DNA from: Camelus dromedarius
Lineage: Eukaryota
Direction: 5' to 3'
Length of the DNA: 64,000 nt
Assembly: GCF_036321535.1 (NCBI RefSeq)
Contig: NC_087436.1
Span: 36,148,001-36,212,000 of the forward strand
The translations under genes were made by a program, and so were the position numbers. Every line of letters starts with the position of its first letter. The first letter of the stretch is position 1. The notes below the pieces were generated by a model that was given only the letters and a program-made list of their open reading frames with translations, was not told the DNA's origin and ran no database searches. Positions 1 to 37,945 of the stretch are shown here, one piece after another.

Positions 1-2595
1 CAGCCTCTTACTTTTTCTTCACTAATGCTTTGGCTATTCTAGGTCTTTTGTGGTTCCATATAAATTTTATTATGATTTGTTCTAGTTCTGTGAAATATGT
101 CCTGGGTAATTTGATAGGGATTGCATTAAATCTGTAGATTGCCTTGGGCAGTGTGACCATTTTAACAATATTGATTCTTCCAATCCAAGAGCATGGAATA
201 TCTTTCCATTTTTTTAAAGTCTTCTTTAATTTCCTTCATCAGTGGTTTATAGTTTTCTGTGTATAATTCTTTCACCTCCTTGGTTAGATTTATTCCCAGA
301 TATTTTATTACTTTGGGTGCTATTTTAAAGGGGATTGTTTCTTTACTTTCTTTTTCTGTTGATTTATCGTTAGTGTAAAGAAATGCAACTGATTTTTGAA
401 CGTTAATTTTGTAACCTCCTACCTTGCTGAATTCTTCAATCAGCTCTAGTAGCTTTTGTGTGGACCTTTTAGGGTTTTCTATATATAGTAACATGTCGTC
501 AGCATATAATGACACTTTTACCTCTTCTTTTCCAATTTGGATCCCTTTTATTTCTTTCTCTTGCCTGACTGCTGTGGCTAGGACTTCCAGGACTATGTTG
601 AATAGGAGTGGTGATAGTGGGCATCCTTGTCTTGTCCCAGATTTTAGTGGGAAGTTTTGAGTTTTTCACCATTGAGTACTATGCTGGCTGTAGGTTTGTC
701 ATATATAGCTTTTATTATGTTGAGATATGTTCCCTCTATACCCACTTCGGCGAGTTTTTATCATAAATGGGTGTTGAATTTTATCAAATGCTTTTTCTGC
801 ATCGATTGAGATGATCATGTAGTTTTTGTCCTTTCTCTTGTTGATGTGATGTATTACACTGATTGATTTGCGTATGTTGAACCAGCCTTGTGTCCCTGGG
901 ATGAACCCCACTTGGTAATGATGTATAATCTTTTTTATGTGTTGTTGGATTCTATTTGCTAAAATTTTGGTGAGGATTTTGGCGTCTATGTTCATCAGTG
1001 ATATTGGCCTATAATTCTCTTTTTTTTGTAGTGTCTTTGCCTGGTTTTGGTAGGGTGATGATGGTGGCTTCATAGAATGAGTTTGGGAGTATTCCCTCCT
1101 TTTCAATCGTCTGAAAGAGTTTGAGAAGGACTGGTATGAGTTCTTCTTTGTATGTTTTGTAGAATTCCCTGGTGAAGCCGTCCGGTCCTGGACTTTTATT
1201 TGTGGGGAGGTTTTTAATTGCTATTTCTATTTCCTTTCTAGTGATCGGATTGTTCAAGTGTTCAGATTCTTCTTGATTCAGTCTTGGTGGACAGTATGTT
1301 TCCAGAAACTTGTCCATCTCCTCTAGGTTATCCAGTTTGGTTCCATATAGTTTTTCATAACATTCTCGTATGATATTCTGAATTTCTATTTTGTTTGTTG
1401 TAATTTCTCCATTTTCCTTTCTTATTTTGCTAATTTGTGCTCTCCCTTTTTTCTTCTTTGTGAGTTTGGCCAGAGGTTTGTCGATTTTATTTACTTTTTC
1501 AAAAAACCAGCTTTTGGTTTGGTTGATTTTTTCTATGGTCTTGTTAATCTCTATTGTATTTAATTCCTCTCTGATCTTTATTATTTCCTTCCTTCTGCTG
1601 CTTTTTGGGGCTTTTTGTTCTTCTTTTTCTAATTCATTCAGGTGGTGGGTTAAATTGTTTATCTGAGATTGTTCTTTTTTGAGGAAGGCCTGTATCGCTA
1701 TAAACTTCCCTCTTAGCACTGCCTTTGCTGTGTCCCATAGGTTTTGAGTGGTTGTGCTTTCATTATCATTTGTCTCAAGGTATTTTTTAATTTCAGCTTT
1801 GATTTCCTCATTGACCCATTGTTTTTTCAACAACATATTGTTTAATCTCCATGCTTTCCTTTTTTTCTCCTTTGTTTCTCTGTTGTTGATTTCCAGTTTC
1901 ATGGCATTGTGGTCAGTAAAGATGCTTGAGATAATTTCTATCTTCTTAAAATTGTTGAGGTTTCTTTTGTGCCCAAGTACATGATCGATCCTGGAAAATG
2001 TTCCATGTGCACTTGAAAAGAATGTACATCCTATTTTGGGGGGGTGTAATGCTCTGAAAATATCCACCAAATCTAGTTTTTCTATTGTAGTATTTAATTT
2101 CTCTGTTGCCTTGTTTATTTTCTGTCTGGAAGATCTGTCTAGTGATGTTAATGCAGTGTTAAAATCTCCAACTATGATTGTATTCCCATCAATATCCCCC
2201 TTTATCTCTGTTAGTAATTCTTGTATGTACTTAGGTGCTCCTATATTGGGTGCATATATATTAACGAGTGTAATATCCTCATCTTGTATCAATCCTTTAA
2301 TCATTATAAAATGTCCTTCTTTATCTTTCTTTATGGCCTTTGTTTTAAAGTCTATTTTGTCTGAAATCAGTACTGCAACACCTGCTTTTTTGGCTTTTCC
2401 ATTTGCATGGAATATCCTTTTCCATCCTTTCACTCTCAATCTATATGTGTCCTTCTCCCTAAAGTGGGTCTCTTGTATGCAGCATATTGAAGGTTCTTGC
2501 TTTATTATCCAGTCTGCCACTCTATGTCTTTTGACTGGAGCATTTAGTCCATTAATATTTACAGTAATTAATGATAGATGTGTGTTTATTGCCAT
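1..2595 (-). pseudogene. L1 ORF2 (endonuclease/reverse transcriptase), frameshifted
   Basis: 528-aa ORF 1009..2595 (APE-type EN, TDHN motif, SPGPDGF Z-domain motif). Continues in other frames (699..1106 NYRPISL, 162..515 YADD), with frameshifts near 1020, 750, 655 and 210. Confidence 0.95.
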
Positions 2596-3001
2596 TTTGA
2601 ACTTATCTTTGTGGTTGAATTGGTATATCTTCTTTGTTCCTTTCTTCTTCCTTTTGTGGTTTGGTAATTTTCCTTTGTATTATCATGGATTTTATTTAAT
2701 TTTTGTGACTCCCTTGTAAGTTTTTGGCTTGTGGTTACCCTTTTTTGTAAATCTATTAGCCCATTACTATAACTGTTTTTATTAAAGTGATAGTAACATG
2801 ATCTTAAACCCATCCTACTGTTAAAAAAATTTAAAAAAGAAAGAAAAAAATATATTCTATATTTCCCTGCCTCCCTCTCCCACTCTCAGTGATTTGTATG
2901 TCTTCTTTTATAATTTCGTGTTTACTTTATCTGTAATTCATGAGTTATTACCTTTCCAGTTGTGAGTTTCTCATTTCTGTAGCATCCTGCTGCTTTTCTA
3001 T

Positions 3002-3901
3002 TTAGAATAGCCCTTTTAATATTTCTTTTAGCATGGGTTTAGTGTTGCTAAACTCCTGCAGCTTTTTTTTGTCTGTGAAACTCTTTATGTCTCCTTCTAT
3101 CCTCAAGGATAGCCTTGCTGGATAAAGGATCCTAGGCTGCATCTTTTTTTCATTCAGAGCTTTGAATATATCTTGCCACTCCCTTCTGGCCTATAGTATT
3201 TGTGTAGAGAAATCAGCTGAGAGCCTTATGGGGGTTCCCTTGTAACTTACTCTTTGCTTTTCTCTTGCTGCCTTTAGAATCATTTCTTTATCCTTGACTC
3301 TGGCCATCTTGATTATGATACGTCTTGGTGTGGGTCTATTTGGGTTCTTCCTGTTTGGGACCCTCTGAGCTTCCTGTACTTGGATATCTGATTCCTTCTT
3401 TAAGTTTGGGAAGTTTTCAGTCATGATTTCTTCAAAAACCTTTTCAATCCCCTCTGATCTTTCTTCCCCTTCGGGGACCCCTATTATGCGAAGATTGGGA
3501 CGCTTTATATTATCCCATAGGTCCCTTATGCTATTTTCATTATTTTTTATTTGCTTATCTTGTAGTTCTTCTGAATGGGTGCTTTCTATTGTCCTGTCTT
3601 CTAGATCACTAATTATTTCCTCTGCATTATCTAGTTGGCTTTGCACAGCTATTAGATCGTTCCTCATCTCTGTCAATGAGTTTACCCATTCTACTTGGCT
3701 CTTTATAGCTTCAATTTCATTTTCGACATATTTTATATCTCTAAACACTATCTCTTTTAATTCCTTCAGCAATTTGATCACTCCTTTTTTGAAATCTTGA
3801 TCTAGTAGGCTATCAATATCTATTTCATTGATCTTTCTTTCAGGGGATTTCTCTTGTTCTTTTAATTGGGAAAGGTTTCTCTGCTTCTTCATCTTGCTCA
3901 T
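3002..3901 (-). pseudogene. L1 ORF1 (RNA-binding/chaperone protein) with one premature stop
   Basis: 236-aa ORF (coiled coil, NLRIIGVPEGE, IRLSADFS) stops at TAG 3191-3193, where Gln is expected. The same frame continues ARREWQDIFK...LKGLF to TAA at 3002-3004. Confidence 0.93.
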
Positions 3902-4379
3902 ACCTCTCTGGCACTGTGGTTTATGGAGTATCAGTTGTTTATTTTGGTCCTTAAGGATTTTATCTATCTAATGCCTATTTAGGAATAGAACTTAGGAAAA
4001 AAAGAAAAAAATAAGAGAGAGAAAGAATTTTAAAAGAAGGGAGAAAGAGGGTTTGAAAACAGTGTATAATGAATAATAGAAGAGTGAGTTGAAGCAGAGT
4101 ATTAATCGGGTTGAGACGTCCTTTAAAACCTTTACAAAAAAAGGAGGGGGGGAAGATGAGTAGATGTATTTGAAACCTGTGTCTAATCAATAACAGGACA
4201 TCAAAACCCAAGAGAAATAGAAATGAATTAAGAAGTAAAAATTAAGAGGGTAATAGAAAATAGAACAGGTAAAAACAGATTAAAAAAAGGGGGGGGGGTT
4301 TGTCGGTGTTCTCCTGGAGTCTGTGTGCTTTTAATGTGAAGTCTTTCTGTCTTCGTCCTGTTTTGGAAGCTCAGCTTGC

Positions 4380-5564
4380 TGTTTTCAGAGGCCCTCCGTT
4401 GGCGCCCTCTTCTGTGCTGCTCCCAGCACCTGTCGGCAAGCAGATCGCGCCTCCTCCCAACACTGGGTCAGGTGCAGCTCTCCTCTGCTGTGGGCGGGCG
4501 GGTCACTGCCCCTCCCGATGCTGCAGTCAGATGTTGCAGACTGGCCAGGTAGGAGGGCGGGTCGTGCCCCCTCCCAGCACCTCGGTCACAGGCTGTGTTC
4601 CTGCCCGAAAGGCGGGGGGCCGCTCTCCCTCTACCTGCGCTGCCGGTATCTCCCCTGCTCTGTGTGGCTGCGCGCTCCGCCCTGGTCGGCGCTCCGCAGG
4701 TGGGCTCGGGGAAGACAGAAGGACAGCTTTGTCCCTGCTCCGGGCCAAAGCTCAGCTCCTTGTTTGTCTTTGTGGAGCAAGTTTTCTGAGGTACCAGGAT
4801 CGAAGGATCCTATCTGCCCCAGGCTGTAGGCCAGTCTCAGTCTGGCCTTTGAGGCTGCTAAGCCCTTCGGCGTGGATGCAGGTTTCGCCCCCACCCCTGC
4901 CTGGATGCTAAGTGCCAGAGGATATGGCGGCTGTGCCTGAGCCCCGCCTCTCTTCCTCCGAAAAGTTTCCGCGGGTTTTCAGAGATGGGGGTATGCACCC
5001 TTTCCCCGAGAGCACATCAACCTTGCTGTTTTATGGAGGGCCCAGATTGTTCTGCCCTGTGCACCCACAGCCACAGCGCGCAGCCCCTTGCGTTCCCCCG
5101 GGGCTGCCTCCGTGCAGCCGCTCCCGTCCTCTACCCAGCGTGTGCAGCCTGGCCCTGCCCGCCGCTGCCAGCCCGCGTCTCAGGCTGGGTGTCAGGGGGG
5201 ACCCTCTGTGCCCGTTTAACTTAGTTCTGTCAGTCAAGGGCTGCTCCGTATAGATCCGAACCTCGGAGGCTCCCCCTCCGTCCCGCTGTCCTCTCAGTTG
5301 TAGAGGGGAGACCCAGCGAGCGAGCGCCAGTCCTCCTTTGCCGCTCCCTCCCCGCGGGACCCGTCCCGCTCTGCTTTGCCTTTTGTTCTTTCTTTTTTCC
5401 TACCAGATTTTTGGCGTCTTTATCTTTTGAAGAGGGCAATGTTCTGTCGGAGTTCTGCAGGTGCTCTGGTTGGCTGAGTGGGTCTGTGGATGTGGGTCTT
5501 GGTGTATTTGTGGGAGAGGGTGAGCTGCGAACGCCCTTCTACTCCGCCATCTTCTCGAGAGTCC
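4380..5564 (-). promoter_or_regulatory. L1 internal promoter / CpG-rich 5'UTR with YY1 site at 5545-5553
   Basis: High GC and retained CpGs. CGCCATCTT (AAGATGGCG on the L1 strand) lies about 11 nt from the 5' end, as in other mammalian L1s. Confidence 0.85.
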
Positions 5565-7440
5565 TATAATATCCTCTTCTTGTATTAAACCTTTATCATT
5601 ATGTGATGTCCTTTTATGAATTTTGTTTTAAAGTCTGTTTTTGTCTGATATGAGTATTACTACCCCTACTTTCTTGTCATTTCCATTTGTATGAAATATC
5701 TTTTTCCATTCCTTCACTTTCAGTCTGGATATGTCTTTCATCTGAAGTGAGTCTCTTGTAGACAGCATATTGTAGGTTCTGGGTTTTTTGTCCATTCTGC
5801 CCCTCTTTGTATTTTGATCAGAATATTTAGTCCATTGACATTTAAAGTAATTATTGAAAGGTATCTACTTATTACCATTTTAAACCTTTTTCCAATTGTT
5901 TTTGTAGTTCTTCTTCGTTCATTTTTTGTTTGTTTTGATGTTTTCTTCTGCAGTATGCTTTGAGGTCCTTTCCTTTTTATTTTTGGGATTCTGTTGTGTT
6001 TTTAATTTGTAGCTACTCTGGTTTTCAAGTATGTTGACCCATAACTTTATCTACTTGCTTTAAACTGATATTTATACAAGTTGAAACTCAATCTAAAGAT
6101 GTACATTTTTAAACTTCCTTTCTCCACATTTTGTGATTTTGGTGTCCTGTGTTATGTCTTCATTCTTATCCTTTTGCTGTTCAAGTAGTTATAATCACTT
6201 TTACAAAATTTTTATTATTTTTTTTAATCTATATACTGGCTTATTTAAGTGATCTTCAGTTCTTTTCTATATTTGCCATTCCTATTGTGATTTTTCTCTT
6301 TCCTGTGAATTCTTGCTTGTTTTCTATGTAGAGAAGACTTTTCAGTATTCTTTTTGGGTAGATTTAGTATTGCTGAATTCTTTTAGTTTTTGCTTGTCTG
6401 AGAAGTTCTTTCTCCTTCTGTTCTAAGTGATGATCTTGCTTGGTGGAGTATCTTTGGTTGCAAGTTTTTTCCTTTCAGGATTTTGAATATATCATGCCAT
6501 TCCCTCTGGCCTACAACATTTCTGCAGAGAAATCAGCTGATGGACTTACAGCAGTTCTCTTGCAACTGACTCTGTTTTTCTTTTGCTGCTTTTAGAATCT
6601 TCTCTATCTTTAACTTTTGCCATTTTAATTATATGTGTTGGCGTGAGTCTCCTTGGAGTAGAAGCCCAGAGGGTTGGGTTTGATTAAGCTCCATTGCCCT
6701 TGAGTGCATGCCCTGCCCCAAGGAGGTGACCACTGAAGCAAGTGAAGCCCTTGCAGTCACAGTGAACTTAGGCACTGTACATGCAGGTGTCTGCAGTTCC
6801 ATCCAGAAGCAGCCCAAGATCATGTCCCTTTCTCCATTGTGTTTGTCCCAGACCTAGTGCTAGGCAGTGGTGTGGAGTAAGCTGGGTCTGGGGGCCAGAG
6901 TGTTGTGGCCGCAGTTGAGGTGGCTGTCCTGCCTCCTGGGACCTGGGCAGCCTCTGTGGCAGACCTCTCCAAGGACTTGTCTGCCCCAGTTCCAGCTCCA
7001 AATTACAGCGTGGAGTGGGTGAAGCTAGAGCACTCCCTTCAGGAAACATGCTGCTGCGCACACTGACTGTGTCTATCTGGTTCCATCTGCCGCCCCTGGG
7101 TGTGCACTGACAGTAGTCTCTACGATTTGGTCCAGATCACACCTCAGGTGCCCTGGTCTGTCTCTGCACAGCTAGACCAAATCTCTTCCGTGATCTCGTT
7201 CCAGGCTGTAGTGTGGAGCTAGCAGGGCCGAGGCTTTGGCCTCTTCAGATTGGGAAGTGCAGCAAGGTGGCAGCCACCAGCTGGTCTCTTTCCACCCTGA
7301 TTGTTAGCAAGCCAGCACAGGCACACTTCTCACAAGTAGAGTCTAGGTGTCTCTCATTTCTATCTGACCCAGCACAGATTTTCCAGCAGGCAAGGGCACT
7401 CCCCAGGGTGAAGGTCTGTCCATGTGGACCTACTCTCCTT
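5565..7440 (-). mobile_element. Older, decayed L1 (ORF2 5' part, spacer, ORF1 3' part, probable 5'UTR remnant) interrupted by the young L1
   Basis: 5565-6640 is similar to 2270-3340 of the young L1 but degenerate. It jumps abruptly at ~6650 into GC-richer, CpG-depleted sequence. Confidence 0.75.
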
Positions 7441-21057: not shown

Positions 21058-23262
21058 CCTTCATTTACTTTTTTTTTTCCCACTTCAAAAACCAGTATTT
21101 TATAACTGGCAGAGACATTTCCATAACATCAAAAACAACAGAATACCTAGAAATAAACTAAACCAAGGAGGTTACCTATACTCTGAAAACCGAAATATCA
21201 CAAAGAAATGGAAAGATTTCTTGTACTCTTTGATTAGAAGGATCAACACTATCAAAATGGCCACACTACCCAAAGCAATCCACAGATCCAATGCAACCCT
21301 ATCAGAATACTACCGACATTCCTCACAGAACTAGAACAAACACTTCCAAAATTTATAAGGAACCACAAAAGACCCCAAACAGCCAAAGCAATCTTCTGTA
21401 GGTCTCTTTTTTCCCTTCTTTTTGTTCTTTTTTCTTACGGTTTGATGATTAGAGAAGGTCCTTTAACATTTGTTGTAAAACTGGTTTGGTGGTGCTGAAA
21501 TCTTTTAGCTTTTCTTTATCTGTGAAGCTTTTGATTTCTCCATCAAGTCTGAATGAGAGCTTTGCTGGTTAGAGTATTCTTGGTTGTAAGTTTCCCCCTT
21601 GCATCACTTTAAATATATCATGGCACTCTCTTCTGCCCTGTAGAGTTTGTGCTGAAAAATCAGCTGATAACCTTATGGGAGTTCCCTTATATGTTATTTG
21701 TTGCTTTTCTCTTGCTAAGTTTAATATTTTCTCCTCCTTAATTGTTGTCAATTTGATAACTATGTGCCTTGGTGTGTTCTTCTTTGGGTTGATTCTGTGT
21801 GGTACTCTCTGTGCTTCCTGGACTTGGCTGACTGTTTCCTTTCCCAAGTTGGGGAAGTTTTTAGTGATTATCTCTCCAAAAATTTTCTCAGGTCCTTTCT
21901 CTTTCTCTTCTCTGGGAACCCTATAATGCAAATATTAGAGTGCTTCATGTTGTCCCAGAGTTCTCTTAAACTATCCTCATTCCTTTTTTTAATCTTTTTT
22001 GTATTCTGAAGTAGTGATTTCCACTAATCTGTCTTCTAGTTCACTGATCCATTCTTCTGCCTCATTTAGTCTATTCTTGGTTCCTTCTAGTGTGTTTGTT
22101 ATTCATTTCAGTGATTTTATTCTTAAGCTCTGGATATTCTTTATATTTTCCAGCTCTTTGCTAATAAAAATTTCACTATGTGCATCTATACTTCTTGTGA
22201 GTTCTCTAGACATCTTGGCCATCATTACTTTAAACTCTTTCTCAAATAAGTTGCCTGTCTCCTCATCACATATTTCTTCTGGGATTTTATCTTGTGCCTT
22301 GGCCTGGTAGATATTCCTTTGCCACTTCATATCTGTCTTTCTGTATGTTTGTGGATTCCTTCCACATGCTTTGGGATTATTGTTTCCTTATTTCTATTAT
22401 CTGCCCCTGGTGGATGAGGCTGGACTAGAGGCTTATGCAGGTTTCCTGGCAGGAGGAGCCAGTGCCTTCCCACCGCTGGGTGAAGCTTGGTCCTGGACCT
22501 CTGATGGGTAGTGCTGTGTCTAGAGGCCTTGTGGCTTAGTAAGTCTGGTGATGGGTGGGGCTGTGTTCCCACCCTGTATGTTGTGTGGCCTGAGGCTTCT
22601 CTACAGGCTGTTGGGTGGGGCTGGGTCTTGGTGCTAATGATCCAATCAAGATGTCAGCCCCCAGGAAAGTTCATATAGACTAACACTCCCAGAAAGTCCA
22701 GCACCAGCTTTTATGTCTCCTGAGTGAGCCACAGCTGTCCCCCACATCCCCAGGAGACCCTCGAAATCCAGCAGGCAGGTCTGGCCCGGTTCCTATGAAA
22801 TCACTGCCTCTGCCCTTGGACCTGGTGCATGTTTCTGTGTATGCTTCCCAAGTGAATGGAGTCTTTTTTCCCCTAGTCCCGTGAGGCTCCCAGAGCCAAG
22901 CCCCCCTAGCCTTCAAAACCAGATGTCCTGGGGTCTCCTCCTCTTCCCAGTGCCAGAACCTGAGCTGGGGAGCCTGACGTGGGGCTTAGAGCTCTCACTC
23001 CTGTAGGAGGGCCTCTGTGACATAACAAATCTTCAGCTTGTGGGTTGCCCACCCAGAGGGTATGAGGCCCAATTATATCGTGAGCATACCCCTCCTACCA
23101 TTTGTGGTTCCCTCTTTATGTTGCCAGTTGCAGAAAATCTTTTTTGCTAGGTTCCAGTCTTTTTTCAGTGGTTGTTTAGCATTCAGTTGTGGTTTCATTG
23201 TAGTCATGAAGAGAGGCAAGCTCATGGTCCTACCACTCCGCCATCTTGACTGGAAATACCCC

Positions 23263-26200
23263 TCTATCCTCTTAAATCTGTTGAGGCTTCTTTTGTGCTT
23301 GAGTATGTGGTCTATCCTAGAGAATGTTCCGTGAGCACTTGAAAAGAATGTGTATTCTGTTTCGGGAGTATGTAATGTCCTAAAAATATCAACCAAGTCC
23401 AAGTGTTGTATTGTGTCATTAAGTATCTCTGTTGCCTTACTGATTTTCCATCTGGAAGACCTGTTCAGTGATGTTAATGGAGTGTTAAAGTCTCCTACTA
23501 TTCGGTATTCCCATCAATTTCTTCCTTTATGTCTGTTAGTATTTGTTTTATATGTAGGTGCTCCTATATTGGGTGCATGTATGTTAATGAGTGTAATATC
23601 TTCATCTTGTTTTTGCTCCTTTGATCATTATATCTTGTCCTTACTCGTCTTTCTTTATGGGCTCTGTTTTAAAAGTCTTTTTTGTCTGATATGTGTATTG
23701 CTACTCCCACTTTCTTGTCATTTCCATTTGCATGAAAAAATTTTTTCCATCCTCTCACTTTCAATCTATTTGTGTCCTTCACTCTAAAGTGGGTCTATTG
23801 TAGGCAGGATATTTTGGGCTTTTGTTTTATTATCCAGTCTGCCACTCTGTCTTTTGATTGGAGCTTTTAGTCCATTGACGTTTATAGTAATTTTTGACAG
23901 ATGTGTATTTATAATTATTTTGAACTTTGTTTCCCAGTTGATTTGGTATTTCTTCTTTGTTCCTTTCTTTTCCTTTTTGTTTTTCTTTTTGTGGTTTGAT
24001 CATTTTCTTCTGTATTAGCTTGGTTTCTTTTTTGGTTTTTGTGAACGGAATTGTGCTTTTGATTTGTGGTTACCCTGTTTTTGAAGTCTGTTAATCCATC
24101 ACTATATCTTTTTGCTTTATACTGATAGTCATGTAGGCTAAAACACATCCTAAAAAGAATGAAGAGAAAAAAAGAGAGAGAGAAACAGTATCTATGTTCT
24201 CTTGCTCTCCTCTCCCACCTTTTATGATTTTGATTTTTCTTTTTACATCTTCAAGTTTATTCTCTTGTAACTCATTGTGGTTATTGCATTTCCAATTATG
24301 GTTTTCTCATCTCTATAGCTTCCTGTTTCTTTTCTATTTAGAGTAGACCTTTCAGTATTTCTTTTAGTGTAGGTTTGGTTTTTGCTTGGCTGTGAAATTC
24401 TCTCTCCTCTACTCTAAAGGATAGTCTTGCTGGATAGAGTATCCTAGGTTGCAGCTTTTTCTCATTCAGGAGTTTGAATTTATATTGCCACCCCCTTCTG
24501 CCCAGCAGTGTTTGTATAGAGAAATCAGCTGAAAGCTTTATGGGAGTTCCCTTGTAACTAACTCTTTGTTTTTCTCTTGCTGCTTTTAGAATTGTTTCTT
24601 TAACTTTGGCTATCTTAATTATAATATGTCTTAGTGTAGGTCTGTTTGAGTTCTTCTTGTTTGGGACCCTCTTTACCTCATGTACTTGGATAGCTGTTTC
24701 CTTTAGGTTTGGAAAGTTTTCAATGATTTATTCCAATACCTTTTCAATCCTGTTTTCTCTTTCTTCTCCTTTTGAGGCCCGTATTATGCGTAGGTTGGCA
24801 CGCTTTATATTATCCCATAGGTCCCTTGTATTGCTTTCATTGGTTTTTACTTGCTTTTCTGTCTGTTTTTCTGATTGGGTAACTTCTGTTACCCTGTCTT
24901 CTAAGTCACTTATTCGTTCCTCTGCATTATCTAGTCTACTTTTAACTGCGTTTAGCTCAGCTCTTACCTCAGCAGTCGAGTTTTCTGTTTTTAATCGGCT
25001 CTTCTTTATGGTTTAAATTTCCTTTTTAAAGTATTCTGTCTCTATTCGTAGTCTTAGATTTTTCATTCTTTTAACTGAGAGTAGTTCCTCTGCTTCTTCA
25101 TTTCGCTTACATTTCTCTGGCTCTATGGATTTAGGAGTATCAGTTATCTACTGTGGTGTTGAAGGGCTGTTTTTGTTTGTTTTTATTTAAAGTAGGAGCA
25201 TTCCTGTGTAGACTGTGTGCGTCTAATAGTTTTGTTGCAGTGGCTGTTCTTACTATGGATGGTTGCCACATCTTCCATGAGTGCTGGCTGTTCCTTTGAT
25301 TGGGAGTGTGGTTGGTGGTGTGGTGATCAGAGCCTGCCCTGATTGTTGTTGTTGAGCCTGGCCTCCTTTTTTGTTCTCTGGTTGTCATAGCCTTGACAGG
25401 GGCCTTGTCTGCCTCCCCTGTTGCTGGAATAGAGGCTTCTAGATCCATTTCTGAGCTGTGGTGTGTAGTAGGCAGGATTGGAGTGCTTCAGCTGGGAGGA
25501 AGAGTAGGCAGGAGGTGTCCACTAGGAAGTGCCATCTGTGGTTGTCTGTCATTTGTTATGTGGGCTTACACAGTACTCTTTGTTGACACTGCCTTTGTCC
25601 CTGCCTTACGCCTGCTCTGGTGTTCTGAGCCCCAGGAACCACCAGTGCTGATCCACCAATGTCAGGCGCTCAGACCTGCTGTTGTAGCAAGAATGCAGTC
25701 ACACACCTAAATCTGTGGTTTGCCACAGGGTCAGCACAGACCCCAGCCATGCCCCACATGGTATGGTCCACCAGCCCATTGTAAATACCCGTACTCGCCC
25801 CTGCCATGCTTCAGAACTCCACTCACTGCATATTGGTCCCAGAGGCTCGGGTCCACAAAGGGTCCAGAGTGAGCAAATCCACCCTCTCTGCCTGGGGATA
25901 TAAACAAATTTCAGTTCCGTCTGCGAAGTTACAGGGCCTCTGGGTAAGGATTCAGTTTTCAGCCCTCCCTCCGTGCAGCAGTGATGGCTATGACCAAGCC
26001 CCACCTCCCTTCTCACGAGAACACACCAACAATGGCACCAAGCAGAGAAAGCTGCCATGGCGTGGCTGTGTTGCACCCCTCCCCGACATACAAACTATTA
26101 GTGGTGCTTTTTTATGGGGGCCCAAGGCTATTCTGTTCCACACACAACCCCAGCCAGAGCTCACACCACCCTCCAGTCCCCTAAGGCTGCCTGTGTGCAG

Positions 26201-36495: not shown

Positions 36496-36681
36496 TCAGC
36501 TCTTAGCAGACATTGGAAGAAAAAGTATAGCTTTCTGCCCAGGTCCTGTTTTGGGTCCAAGTTTGTACTGCCCAGTTCGTTTCAGTGCCACATACCAACT
36601 GGAGTATTTCCTTGACCGGTAAGTATTGTAGTTATTAGATTCCAATCGTTCAAAAAAGAAACACTCGTCTGTAACACATTT
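36496..36681 (-). CDS. FGF2: FGF2 exon 3 coding part (KCVTDECFFFERLESNNYNTYRSRKYSSWYVALKRTGQYKLGPKTGPGQKAILFLPMSAKS-stop)
   Basis: Matches the basic FGF C-terminus; ttttcag acceptor; TGA at 36496-36498. Confidence 0.99.
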   Translation of the reverse strand, partial: KCVTDECFFFERLESNNYNTYRSRKYSSWYVALKRTGQYKLGPKTGPGQKAILFLPMSAKS

Positions 36682-37945
36682 CTGAAAAATAAAGGAAAAA
36701 TCAGTAGTTATTATTCTTTTCATAATAAATATTTGATGACAATACACAGTGCTTTGGGTTTAGCAGACAATCAAACTAAAGTGAGACAGGCCAAAATCTG
36801 ACACGACCTAATTCTGCAGGAAGAGCAGGATGGGAGCACAGCATGTCAGCAGGACAACTTCAAGCACACCTCTCCAGAGGAGCAGTCCAAGGACCATTCT
36901 TCGCCCCACAGGTCAGGTGTAGTATAGGAACCACAGCAGTTCAGACTTGAAACATCCCATGTATGTAGATTTTAGTGTCCCCACAAAGAGGTATATACAT
37001 CCAGTAACAAGCAGCACGCTCCATTGAGGGAAACCCAAAGCAGTAGCTTCTGCTTAGGTATTTACGGCCCATACAACCCCTCTCAGTCTAGTGATGAAAC
37101 ACTCCTGGAACTACAACCCAGGGGTAACCTTCCCATAAAGAAAGGTTTTATTCGTACGTTGCTCACAGAAACAATTCCTTAAATTTGAACAAATGTTTCT
37201 AGTGACTAACTAATGTTGGTTCTAAGGCATAAAAAGAATATTGTAGAGAAAATAGCTAATGTATATAATGCCGAAAATTGTACTGGAACATTATAATATG
37301 GTTAGCATTCTCAAAATCAGTAGATAATGAATAAGTAATGTAGACCCCATTGGTTTCTGGCAGTCTTTCTTGTGGGAAGGGAAACTACCCTGCCATTTTA
37401 CGTCAACTATGTAGCAGAGGGGGAAAAACAGCTAGCTTTACAAGTAGTTAGACCTGGAAATACTATTACAAGTAATGGAGTCCAAAATAGGCTGCCACAT
37501 TATTTCAGGTAAATGTTCAAAAGTCAGTTTCACAAGGGGGCACGTGATACTTAACCTCTGGCACGGGAGTAGTCAACAAACGACCATGCTTTAAGGAAAG
37601 AGAGGAAATATTTTTTTATGTTACAATTAGATGAGAATGATCAACTCATAGAATACCATATATATTTACACATCTCTCCACATGTAAATATAACGTGTAC
37701 ATAGATATAACATGAATCTATGGTTTTGTATTAATGAGCATATCAGATTCCAACTAATTCCTATATATTCAAGTCTAAGAAACCAGGTTTGGGGAAGTCC
37801 ACATTCAAGACTGGAGTATTTTCCCAGATTTTGGTTCTAAGATAAACTAAACAATGGCACAAAGTGTGAGAAAAACACCAGTAAGCAAAACAATGAAAAG
37901 AGATGGCATAATAACCAAAATGTTTTAAAAGTAAAGGACTGAGAA

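What the first reader, a model, noticed from the sequence alone, without database searches (positions are those of the whole stretch)
2586..2813. Candidate third ORF in the L1 inter-ORF spacer, ending on the ORF2 start codon, shared by two diverged L1 copies
Seen: the ~400-nt spacer of the young L1 holds an ATG-initiated 75-codon basic ORF in strong context (AGGATGG). Its end overlaps the ORF2 start (AAA-ATGGCAA-TAA). The older L1 has a homologous 77-codon ORF at 23915-24148, starting at the same ATG position. Shared blocks are YSxGLxD, RVTTxQK, NTxENxQTTK and RKEQRRxTxSTxKxSSK, with a 12-nt in-frame indel, although that copy's ORF1 and ORF2 are broken. Established: human L1 ORF2 is translated by termination/reinitiation over a short spacer, and long spacers in other mammals are poorly explained. 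Inference: this ORF may relay ribosomes to ORF2 by stop-start coupling, or encode a small basic peptide. Caveats: the strand is T-poor, so stops are rare by chance, and the middle of the alignment appears to contain compensating frameshifts.
Basis: partly seen in the sequence, partly recalled or inferred. Interest (0 to 1): 0.7.

Follow-up and report, generated by a model that had tools for sequence, protein, structure and literature searches.

The report
Conserved bridging ORF in L1 spacer
The long gap between the two genes of this mammal's LINE-1 jumping gene holds a third reading frame that ends on the start of the second gene and has stayed open across distant mammals while its amino acids drifted, which suggests it carries ribosomes to that gene.

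Summary
The 75-codon ORF (2813-2586, minus strand) is real; its stop lies 7-9 nt past the A of the ORF2 ATG. It is not a composition effect: stops are expected at about 8% per codon and shuffles reproduce it in about 1% or less. Database searches returned over 1000 predicted proteins from other L1 families in this frame (selected for being open). Published elephant and hyrax spacers, read by eye, hold 88- and 85-codon ATG ORFs in the same register; opossum and rodent-type spacers do not. The peptide shows no amino-acid constraint (dN/dS 0.80 against 0.28-0.32 for ORF2/ORF1). Copy B is weaker support than claimed: it has compensating frameshifts and its stop comes from a mutated ORF2 ATG. A third copy is broken. 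Best reading: a bridging ORF that delivers ribosomes to ORF2 by termination-reinitiation; published megabat spacer mutants fit (AUG removal 3.3-fold down). Translation was not shown. I found no description of this ORF in six literature searches.

The parts
2586..2813 (-). Bridging ORF ('ORF3') of young L1 copy A, 75 codons
   Evidence: shuffles; relatives
2586..2595 (-). Overlap of the ORF2 ATG (2595-2593) with the last ORF3 codons and its stop
2814..2850 (-). U-rich tract ending in CAG/TAG just before the ORF3 ATG (acceptor-like; use untested)
   Evidence: 4th of 283 AGs in 2596-5560 by upstream pyrimidines, best among YAG
2851..3001 (-). 5' part of the spacer, with three ATG ORFs of 4-8 codons just after the ORF1 stop
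3002..3901 (-). ORF1 of copy A, interrupted by a premature stop at 3191-3193
   Evidence: (PF02994, PF17489)
1..2595 (-). ORF2 of copy A (endonuclease, RT), broken downstream, cut by the window end; N-terminal 100 aa read as L1-1_Vpa (alpaca)
   Evidence: compared by eye
3902..5560 (-). GC-rich 5' UTR of copy A (5' end approximate)
   Evidence: read directly
23915..24148 (-). ORF3 of older copy B, 77 codons, with internal compensating frameshifts
24149..24180 (-). Pyrimidine tract plus TAG before the ORF3 ATG of copy B
   Evidence: best of 117 AGs
5870..6095 (-). Decayed ORF3 homologue of a third L1 copy C (no ATG, 3 stops, frameshifts)

Best explanation
The 3' half of the long placental L1 spacer is a bridging ORF. 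Shown: an ATG about 190 nt after the ORF1 stop opens a 75-88-codon frame that runs without a stop to the ORF2 ATG and terminates on or just past it, in camelid, pig-type, older L1 families, elephant and hyrax, while its amino acids change at about the neutral rate. Inferred: ribosomes reach this ATG after ORF1 (reinitiation, or internal entry at the U-rich tract), cross the rest of the spacer as elongating ribosomes, stop on the ORF2 start and reinitiate there. Selection acts on start, openness and stop position, not on the peptide. Lineages that shortened the spacer to about 40-60 nt no longer need it.
For: Open frame beyond chance (0.002-0.004 for A and B from composition; about 0.001 each for elephant and hyrax from published composition). 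Randomly placing the 62 A-B substitutions leaves the frame open in 2.9% (A) or 1.6% (B) of 20000 trials. The A lineage has an internal branch of 0.69 amino-acid changes per site with the frame open (quick tree). Hits ending at K-W-(x): 22 of 63, 78 of 113 new, counted; 33 of 99 new. Elephant 88 and hyrax 85 codons in the same register, other two frames closed, read by eye; elephant ORF2 starts M-T, giving an AUGA overlap. ATG kept in 18 of 18 pig consensus passages seen (18 of 31). dN/dS 0.80 versus 0.32 and 0.28. Megabat: all AUGs mutated 3.3-fold down, 3' third deleted 6.9-fold down, shuffled 8.8-fold down (PMC4072516 section 10). 20 of 20 rodent-type loci measured have 40-59-nt spacers and no long ORF.
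Against: No translation data. Protein hits are chosen for being open in this frame and top-scoring lists favour full length; no alternative-frame search was run. Afrotherian and pig readings are by eye on consensus sequences. One published pig consensus stops at codon 49 after an A-run, as does 1 of 5 youngest-type pig consensuses counted. B's intactness is partly luck (P about 0.17 at its own decay rate, and it has internal frameshifts); C is broken. I could not see the megabat spacer, so I do not know it has this ORF; in that study the whole spacer is inhibitory and dispensable, and the middle third alone, with the same junction as the 3'-deleted mutant, was not impaired. The model does not explain why 75 or more codons are kept when a short ORF near ORF2 would also give stop-start coupling. 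Opossum has a long spacer without it.
Confidence: 0.55

Rival explanations
1. ORF3 makes a useful small basic peptide (for example RNA-binding in the L1 particle) that evolves fast, as parts of ORF1 do.
For: Explains the kept length; ATG in strong context; some residues recur across families (VTT-QK, KEQRR, KWQ); slight third-position excess in A-B (16, 14, 21) and A-C (20, 24, 29).
Against: dN/dS 0.80, higher than arbitrary frames of the non-coding 5' spacer half (0.52-0.61); no invariant column in 31 sequences; pLDDT 65, pTM 0.24; frameshifted middles occur; basic composition follows from 50% A; lost in short-spacer lineages.
Confidence: 0.13
2. ORF3 is an overlapping inhibitory upstream ORF: it captures ribosomes and carries them past the ORF2 AUG, keeping ORF2p low.
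For: Explains why the frame must stay open up to and past the ORF2 ATG; long spacers lower retrotransposition in megabat (26-40-fold) and pig.
Against: Removing all megabat spacer AUGs lowered activity 3.3-fold instead of raising it; the overlap is only 1-13 nt, within reinitiation range.
Confidence: 0.12
3. The tract plus AG before the ATG is a splice acceptor; splicing from a 5' UTR or ORF1 donor makes an ORF1-less or ORF1-ORF3 mRNA whose first long ORF ends on ORF2.
For: Best AG of 117 in B and best YAG of 283 AGs in A; Arg (AG-containing codon) precedes the Met in 30 of 62 hits with upstream sequence; hyrax has pyrimidines plus CAG directly before its ATG (by eye).
Against: AG within a few bases of the ATG in only 6 of 18 pig passages (by eye) and no tract in elephant, though the ORF persists; no RNA evidence obtained.
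Confidence: 0.1
4. No function: a frame that happened to be open in the ancestor stayed open through inertia, helped by nucleotide-level constraints of another kind (for example DNA motifs).
For: Families are related, so cases are not independent; ascertainment in protein hits; synonymous sites in ORF3 are more conserved (pS 0.29) than in ORF1/ORF2 (0.38-0.39) on 68 codons; AACCACA occurs 3 times in A's ORF3 and once in 2747 nt upstream; broken in C, some pig consensuses and opossum.
Against: Neutral retention 2-3% for the A-B pair alone; elephant and hyrax spacers barely resemble each other or A, differ in length, and keep register and ATG.
Confidence: 0.1

Closest known systems
Human L1 ORF2 translation by unconventional termination-reinitiation (Alisch et al. 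2006; not read, seen only as cited in PMC5972666, PMC4072516, PMC5860796)
   Same: ORF2 start depends on a translated ORF terminating close upstream.
   Different: There ORF1 itself stops 63 nt upstream; here a separate 75-88-codon ORF spans the last 220-260 nt of a 400-520-nt spacer and overlaps the ORF2 ATG.
Megabat L1 lineage 1 long spacer (Yang et al. 2014, PMC4072516; sections 9, 10, 14, Table S2, part 1 of Text S2 read)
   Same: Long spacer; authors mutated its AUGs and linked the 3.3-fold loss to reinitiation after 'small ORFs'.
   Different: In the parts read no single long ORF is mapped or shown to be conserved across species.
SART1 UAAUG stop-start coupling and viral termination-reinitiation (caliciviruses, influenza B; passages of review PMC5972666)
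   Same: Stop of the upstream ORF overlaps or abuts the downstream AUG.
   Different: The upstream ORF there is a functional protein gene and coupling needs RNA structure or a TURBS; no structure is seen here (z +0.65).
Predicted IRES in long L1 spacers (Boissinot and Sookdeo 2016, PMC5381506; passages and supplement parts 1-2 read)
   Same: Places the function in the 3' part of the spacer next to ORF2.
   Different: A structure-based prediction with no ORF; the same paper treats the pig spacer as independently regained, whereas the shared motif and register point to common descent.
Primate L1 ORF0 (Denli et al. 2015; seen only as cited)
   Same: Short third ORF in L1.
   Different: ORF0 is antisense, in the 5' UTR and primate-specific.

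Membership tests
Mammalian L1 (host element) | ORF1 with L1 RBD/trimer domains, then ORF2 with APE endonuclease and RT | tested here: met
   PF02994, PF17489, PF03372, PF00078; ORF2 N-terminus reads as L1-1_Vpa
Termination-reinitiation coupling | Upstream ORF stop overlaps or lies close to the downstream AUG | tested here: met
   Stop 7-9 nt past the A of the ORF2 ATG; AUGA in elephant
Termination-reinitiation coupling | Upstream ORF is translated and ORF2 output depends on the stop position | not testable with these tools
   Only indirect megabat data
TURBS/SART1-type coupling | Structured RNA element near the stop-start site | tested here: not met
   2580-2830 folds no better than shuffles, z +0.65, 149 of 200 as stable; sequence downstream of the ORF2 ATG, where SART1 has its structure, was not folded
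Protein-coding gene under purifying selection | dN/dS well below neutral frames, conserved residues | tested here: not met
   0.80 on 68 codons versus 0.28-0.32; no invariant column; small sample
Spliced ORF2-only L1 mRNA | Acceptor used in RNA | not tested
   Sequence ranking only; no reads were laid
ORF0 | Antisense ORF in the 5' UTR | tested here: not met
   Sense strand, between ORF1 and ORF2

The most novel reading that the evidence does not exclude
The ancestral placental L1 was tricistronic: a translated third gene between ORF1 and ORF2, about as old as the split of Afrotheria from other placentals, both hands ribosomes to ORF2 and yields a fast-evolving basic peptide, and was lost repeatedly when spacers shrank in rodents, primates, cattle, dog and horse. 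Its decayed copies would then be a very common unannotated small ORF in mammalian genomes.
Probability: 0.2. Interest if true: 0.85.

Novelty: new variant of a known kind. Interest (0 to 1): 0.66.

Why it matters
How ORF2 is translated across a 400-500-nt spacer, and why such spacers persist although they lower activity in HeLa assays, are stated as open in PMC4072516 and PMC5381506. A conserved ORF ending on the ORF2 start gives a specific mechanism in place of the predicted IRES and can be tested with three point mutants. It also suggests that the long spacers of pig, camelids and Afrotheria share descent.

Tried and rejected
No whole genome was held, so no camelid family alignment. IMG/VR scan with the ORF2 N-terminus: 0 relatives among 13 pattern matches. 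Metagenome scan: 33 loci, none with a spacer similar to A, B or C; 20 of them measured, all rodent-type with 40-59 nt. Pfam: only a sub-cutoff Laminin_I match for A, nothing for B. ESM Atlas: no usable hit for a family member. AlphaFold2: one low-confidence helix, not used for a fold search. RNA structure: none. Twenty public runs hold part of the element, 6 of them RNA; none was laid, so they are not evidence and the splice question stays open. Perissodactyl consensus FASTA files could not be read; Alisch 2006 not held; the supplement of PMC9252281 was listed, not read; these may bear on conservation and novelty. First classification of hit ends was too crude and was replaced. The careful tree did not finish; the quick tree has 68 of 93 inner branches unresolved and holds 93 of 176 hits (those ending at K-W with a findable start) plus A, B and P0001. 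Rejected: 'T-poor strand' as explanation; ORF2 N-terminal extension as the general reading (ORF2 frame open only 28 and 25 codons in A and B; closed 5 codons upstream in elephant).

Full report
Observation. On the minus strand, copy A has an ATG at 2813 and 75 open codons to TAA at 2588-2586; the last codons overlap the ORF2 ATG at 2595. Pfam identifies the flanking ORF1 and ORF2, and the first 100 residues of ORF2 read as alpaca L1-1_Vpa in Text S2 of Yang et al. 2014 (by eye), so A is a young camelid-type L1. Its ORF1 carries a premature stop and ORF2 is broken further on. Copy B has a homologous 77-codon ORF. Self-comparison showed a third spacer, copy C, with no ATG and 3 stops in this frame.

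Chance. The strand is 50% A, which makes TAA common: 0.082 stops per codon in A and 0.069 in B, so 72-77 open codons have probability 0.002-0.004 in a given frame. Of 5000 dinucleotide shuffles, 0.96% (A) and 1.9% (B) give an ATG ORF of 70 or more codons anywhere; shuffling only the last 220 nt leaves some frame open for 70 codons up to ORF2 in 1.3% and 5.9% (B's anchor there was a few bases off). Placing the 62 observed A-B substitutions at random leaves the frame open in 2.9% and 1.6% of 20000 trials. B counts for less than it seems: its middle (about residues 31-48) matches family peptides in another frame, its stop is made by ATA at the ORF2 start position, and at its own decay rate a 77-codon frame survives with probability about 0.17. 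The stop on the ORF2 start is largely supplied by ORF2's own first codons.

Other L1 families. The A peptide finds 2 close relatives (91% and 88%; one with an in-frame two-codon deletion). A four-sequence profile finds 63 clusters at 50% identity, a 31-sequence profile 1055 proteins (best 120 listed) and a profile of 6 older-type hits 839 (best 120). None carries a name or Pfam domain where these were shown. They look like gene calls on host DNA in assemblies; some tails resemble pig or ruminant SINEs (recalled). Most start at a Met in the same column after a Phe-rich run when extended upstream. Ends at K-W-(x): 22 of 63 and 78 of 113 new, 33 of 99 new; others run through, end 1-4 codons early, or leave the frame at scattered places, as decayed copies of open ancestors would. 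A graded series reaches an oldest type that still has the Met and the KWQ end (7 of 99); its likeness to L1M is recalled. These hits were selected for being open and no alternative-frame search was run, so they show that the frame was open in many families but do not measure how unusual that is.

Unselected sequences. Supplement 4 of Boissinot and Sookdeo 2016 prints four mammalian spacers. I read them codon by codon by eye; their lengths are the table values minus one, the same offset as for human, so they end at the ORF2 ATG. In the register of copy A, elephant has an ATG at nt 196 and 88 open codons, including the VTT motif; ORF2 starts M-T, giving an AUGA overlap; the other frames close at nt 365 and 444. 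Hyrax has an ATG at nt 169 and 85 open codons; the other frames close at nt 378 and 410. Composition-based chance is about 0.001 each (using table values and taking G as half of GC). The pig spacer has the ATG but stops at codon 49 after an A-run; opossum has stops at nt 669 and 696. In 18 of 31 pig consensus passages from Chen et al. 2019, all 18 keep the ATG. Among 5 youngest-type ones counted by eye, 4 stay in frame through the first A-run and end between about 24 nt before and 13 nt after the ORF2 ATG, depending on a second A-run of 22-24; 1 stops at codon 49. A-run lengths in consensus sequences are unreliable. Twenty rodent-type loci have 40-59-nt spacers without a long ORF.

Peptide or frame. 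Between A and B, amino-acid identity is 51% and dN/dS 0.80 on 68 codons, against 70-72% and 0.32/0.28 for ORF1/ORF2; arbitrary frames of the non-coding 5' half give 0.52-0.61. No column is invariant in 31 sequences. A quick tree puts 0.69 changes per site on the internal branch to A. The model is one helix of low confidence, and the RNA folds no better than shuffles. What is kept is start, openness and end.

Mechanism. Shown: the anatomy and its persistence. From the literature: ORF2 is thought to be made by termination-reinitiation (PMC5972666, passages). In megabat L1, mutating all spacer AUGs lowers retrotransposition 3.3-fold, deleting the 3' third 6.9-fold and shuffling 8.8-fold, while the whole spacer is inhibitory compared with the human one (PMC4072516); the pig spacer is also inhibitory (PMC6501411, passages). 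Inferred: ribosomes enter at the ORF3 ATG about 190 nt after the ORF1 stop, cross the spacer in elongation, terminate on the ORF2 start and reinitiate (0.55). How they reach the ATG is open. A U-rich tract with AG precedes it in A, B and hyrax, but the AG is near the ATG in only 6 of 18 pig passages and elephant has no tract, so splicing is not the general route (0.10); no RNA was examined. An overlapping inhibitory ORF (0.12), a useful fast-evolving peptide (0.13) and inertia (0.10) remain. I have not seen the megabat spacer, and its middle-third construct was not impaired, which the relay model does not explain.

Known and new. It works like stop-start coupling (human L1, SART1, caliciviruses) but failed the structure test for TURBS/SART1 type in the stretch folded and is not ORF0. 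Searches of the held library for such an ORF returned nothing; some searches returned papers of which I read passages of PMC4072516, PMC5381506, PMC5872511, PMC6501411, PMC5972666, PMC9252281 and PMC5860796, none describing it in those passages. Subscription papers, Alisch 2006 and RepBase notes were not seen. Two earlier AI notes of this scan reach the same relay idea in other genomes; they are not independent evidence and came after my own reading. Verdict: a real, old and apparently undescribed feature; new variant of a known mechanism; interest 0.66.

Noticed in passing
window 36496-36723 (-): 75-codon ORF matching Pfam FGF (E 1e-17), probably an exon of a fibroblast growth factor gene or pseudogene.
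   Followed up: no
window 2174-2719 (+): 181-codon ORF antisense to the spacer and ORF2 start of copy A; the matching region of B has only 68 codons.
   Followed up: no
window 4130 and 3991 (-): Two strong pyrimidine-tract AG sites in the 5' UTR shortly before ORF1, so both ORF1 and ORF3 follow U-rich tracts.
   Followed up: no
window 2586-2813 and 23915-24148 (-): AACCACA occurs 3 times in A and twice in B, once in 2747 nt upstream of A's ORF3; it matches the RUNX site as recalled and includes the motif shared with elephant.
   Followed up: partly
window about 2947 (-): Donor-like AAG-GTAATA about 50 nt after the ORF1 stop in A; B and C have GC at this place.
   Followed up: no
window 6200-6280 (-): Copy C has about 80 nt in the 5' half of the spacer that A and B lack, so spacer length varied upstream of the ORF3 start.
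   Followed up: no
window 21380-21450 (-): A fourth ORF1 end whose following sequence is not similar to the long spacers and which joins ORF2 sequence after a large deletion.
   Followed up: no
PMC6501411 additional file 1, passages 14-18: Youngest-type pig consensuses are one base shorter just before the ORF2 ATG, which turns a nearby in-frame ATG into a 15-codon ORF ending on the ORF2 start (by eye).
   Followed up: partly
L020-L023: Rat-type spacers (59 nt) hold an 18-codon ATG ORF that ends 22 nt past the ORF2 ATG; 16 mouse-type spacers hold none.
   Followed up: no
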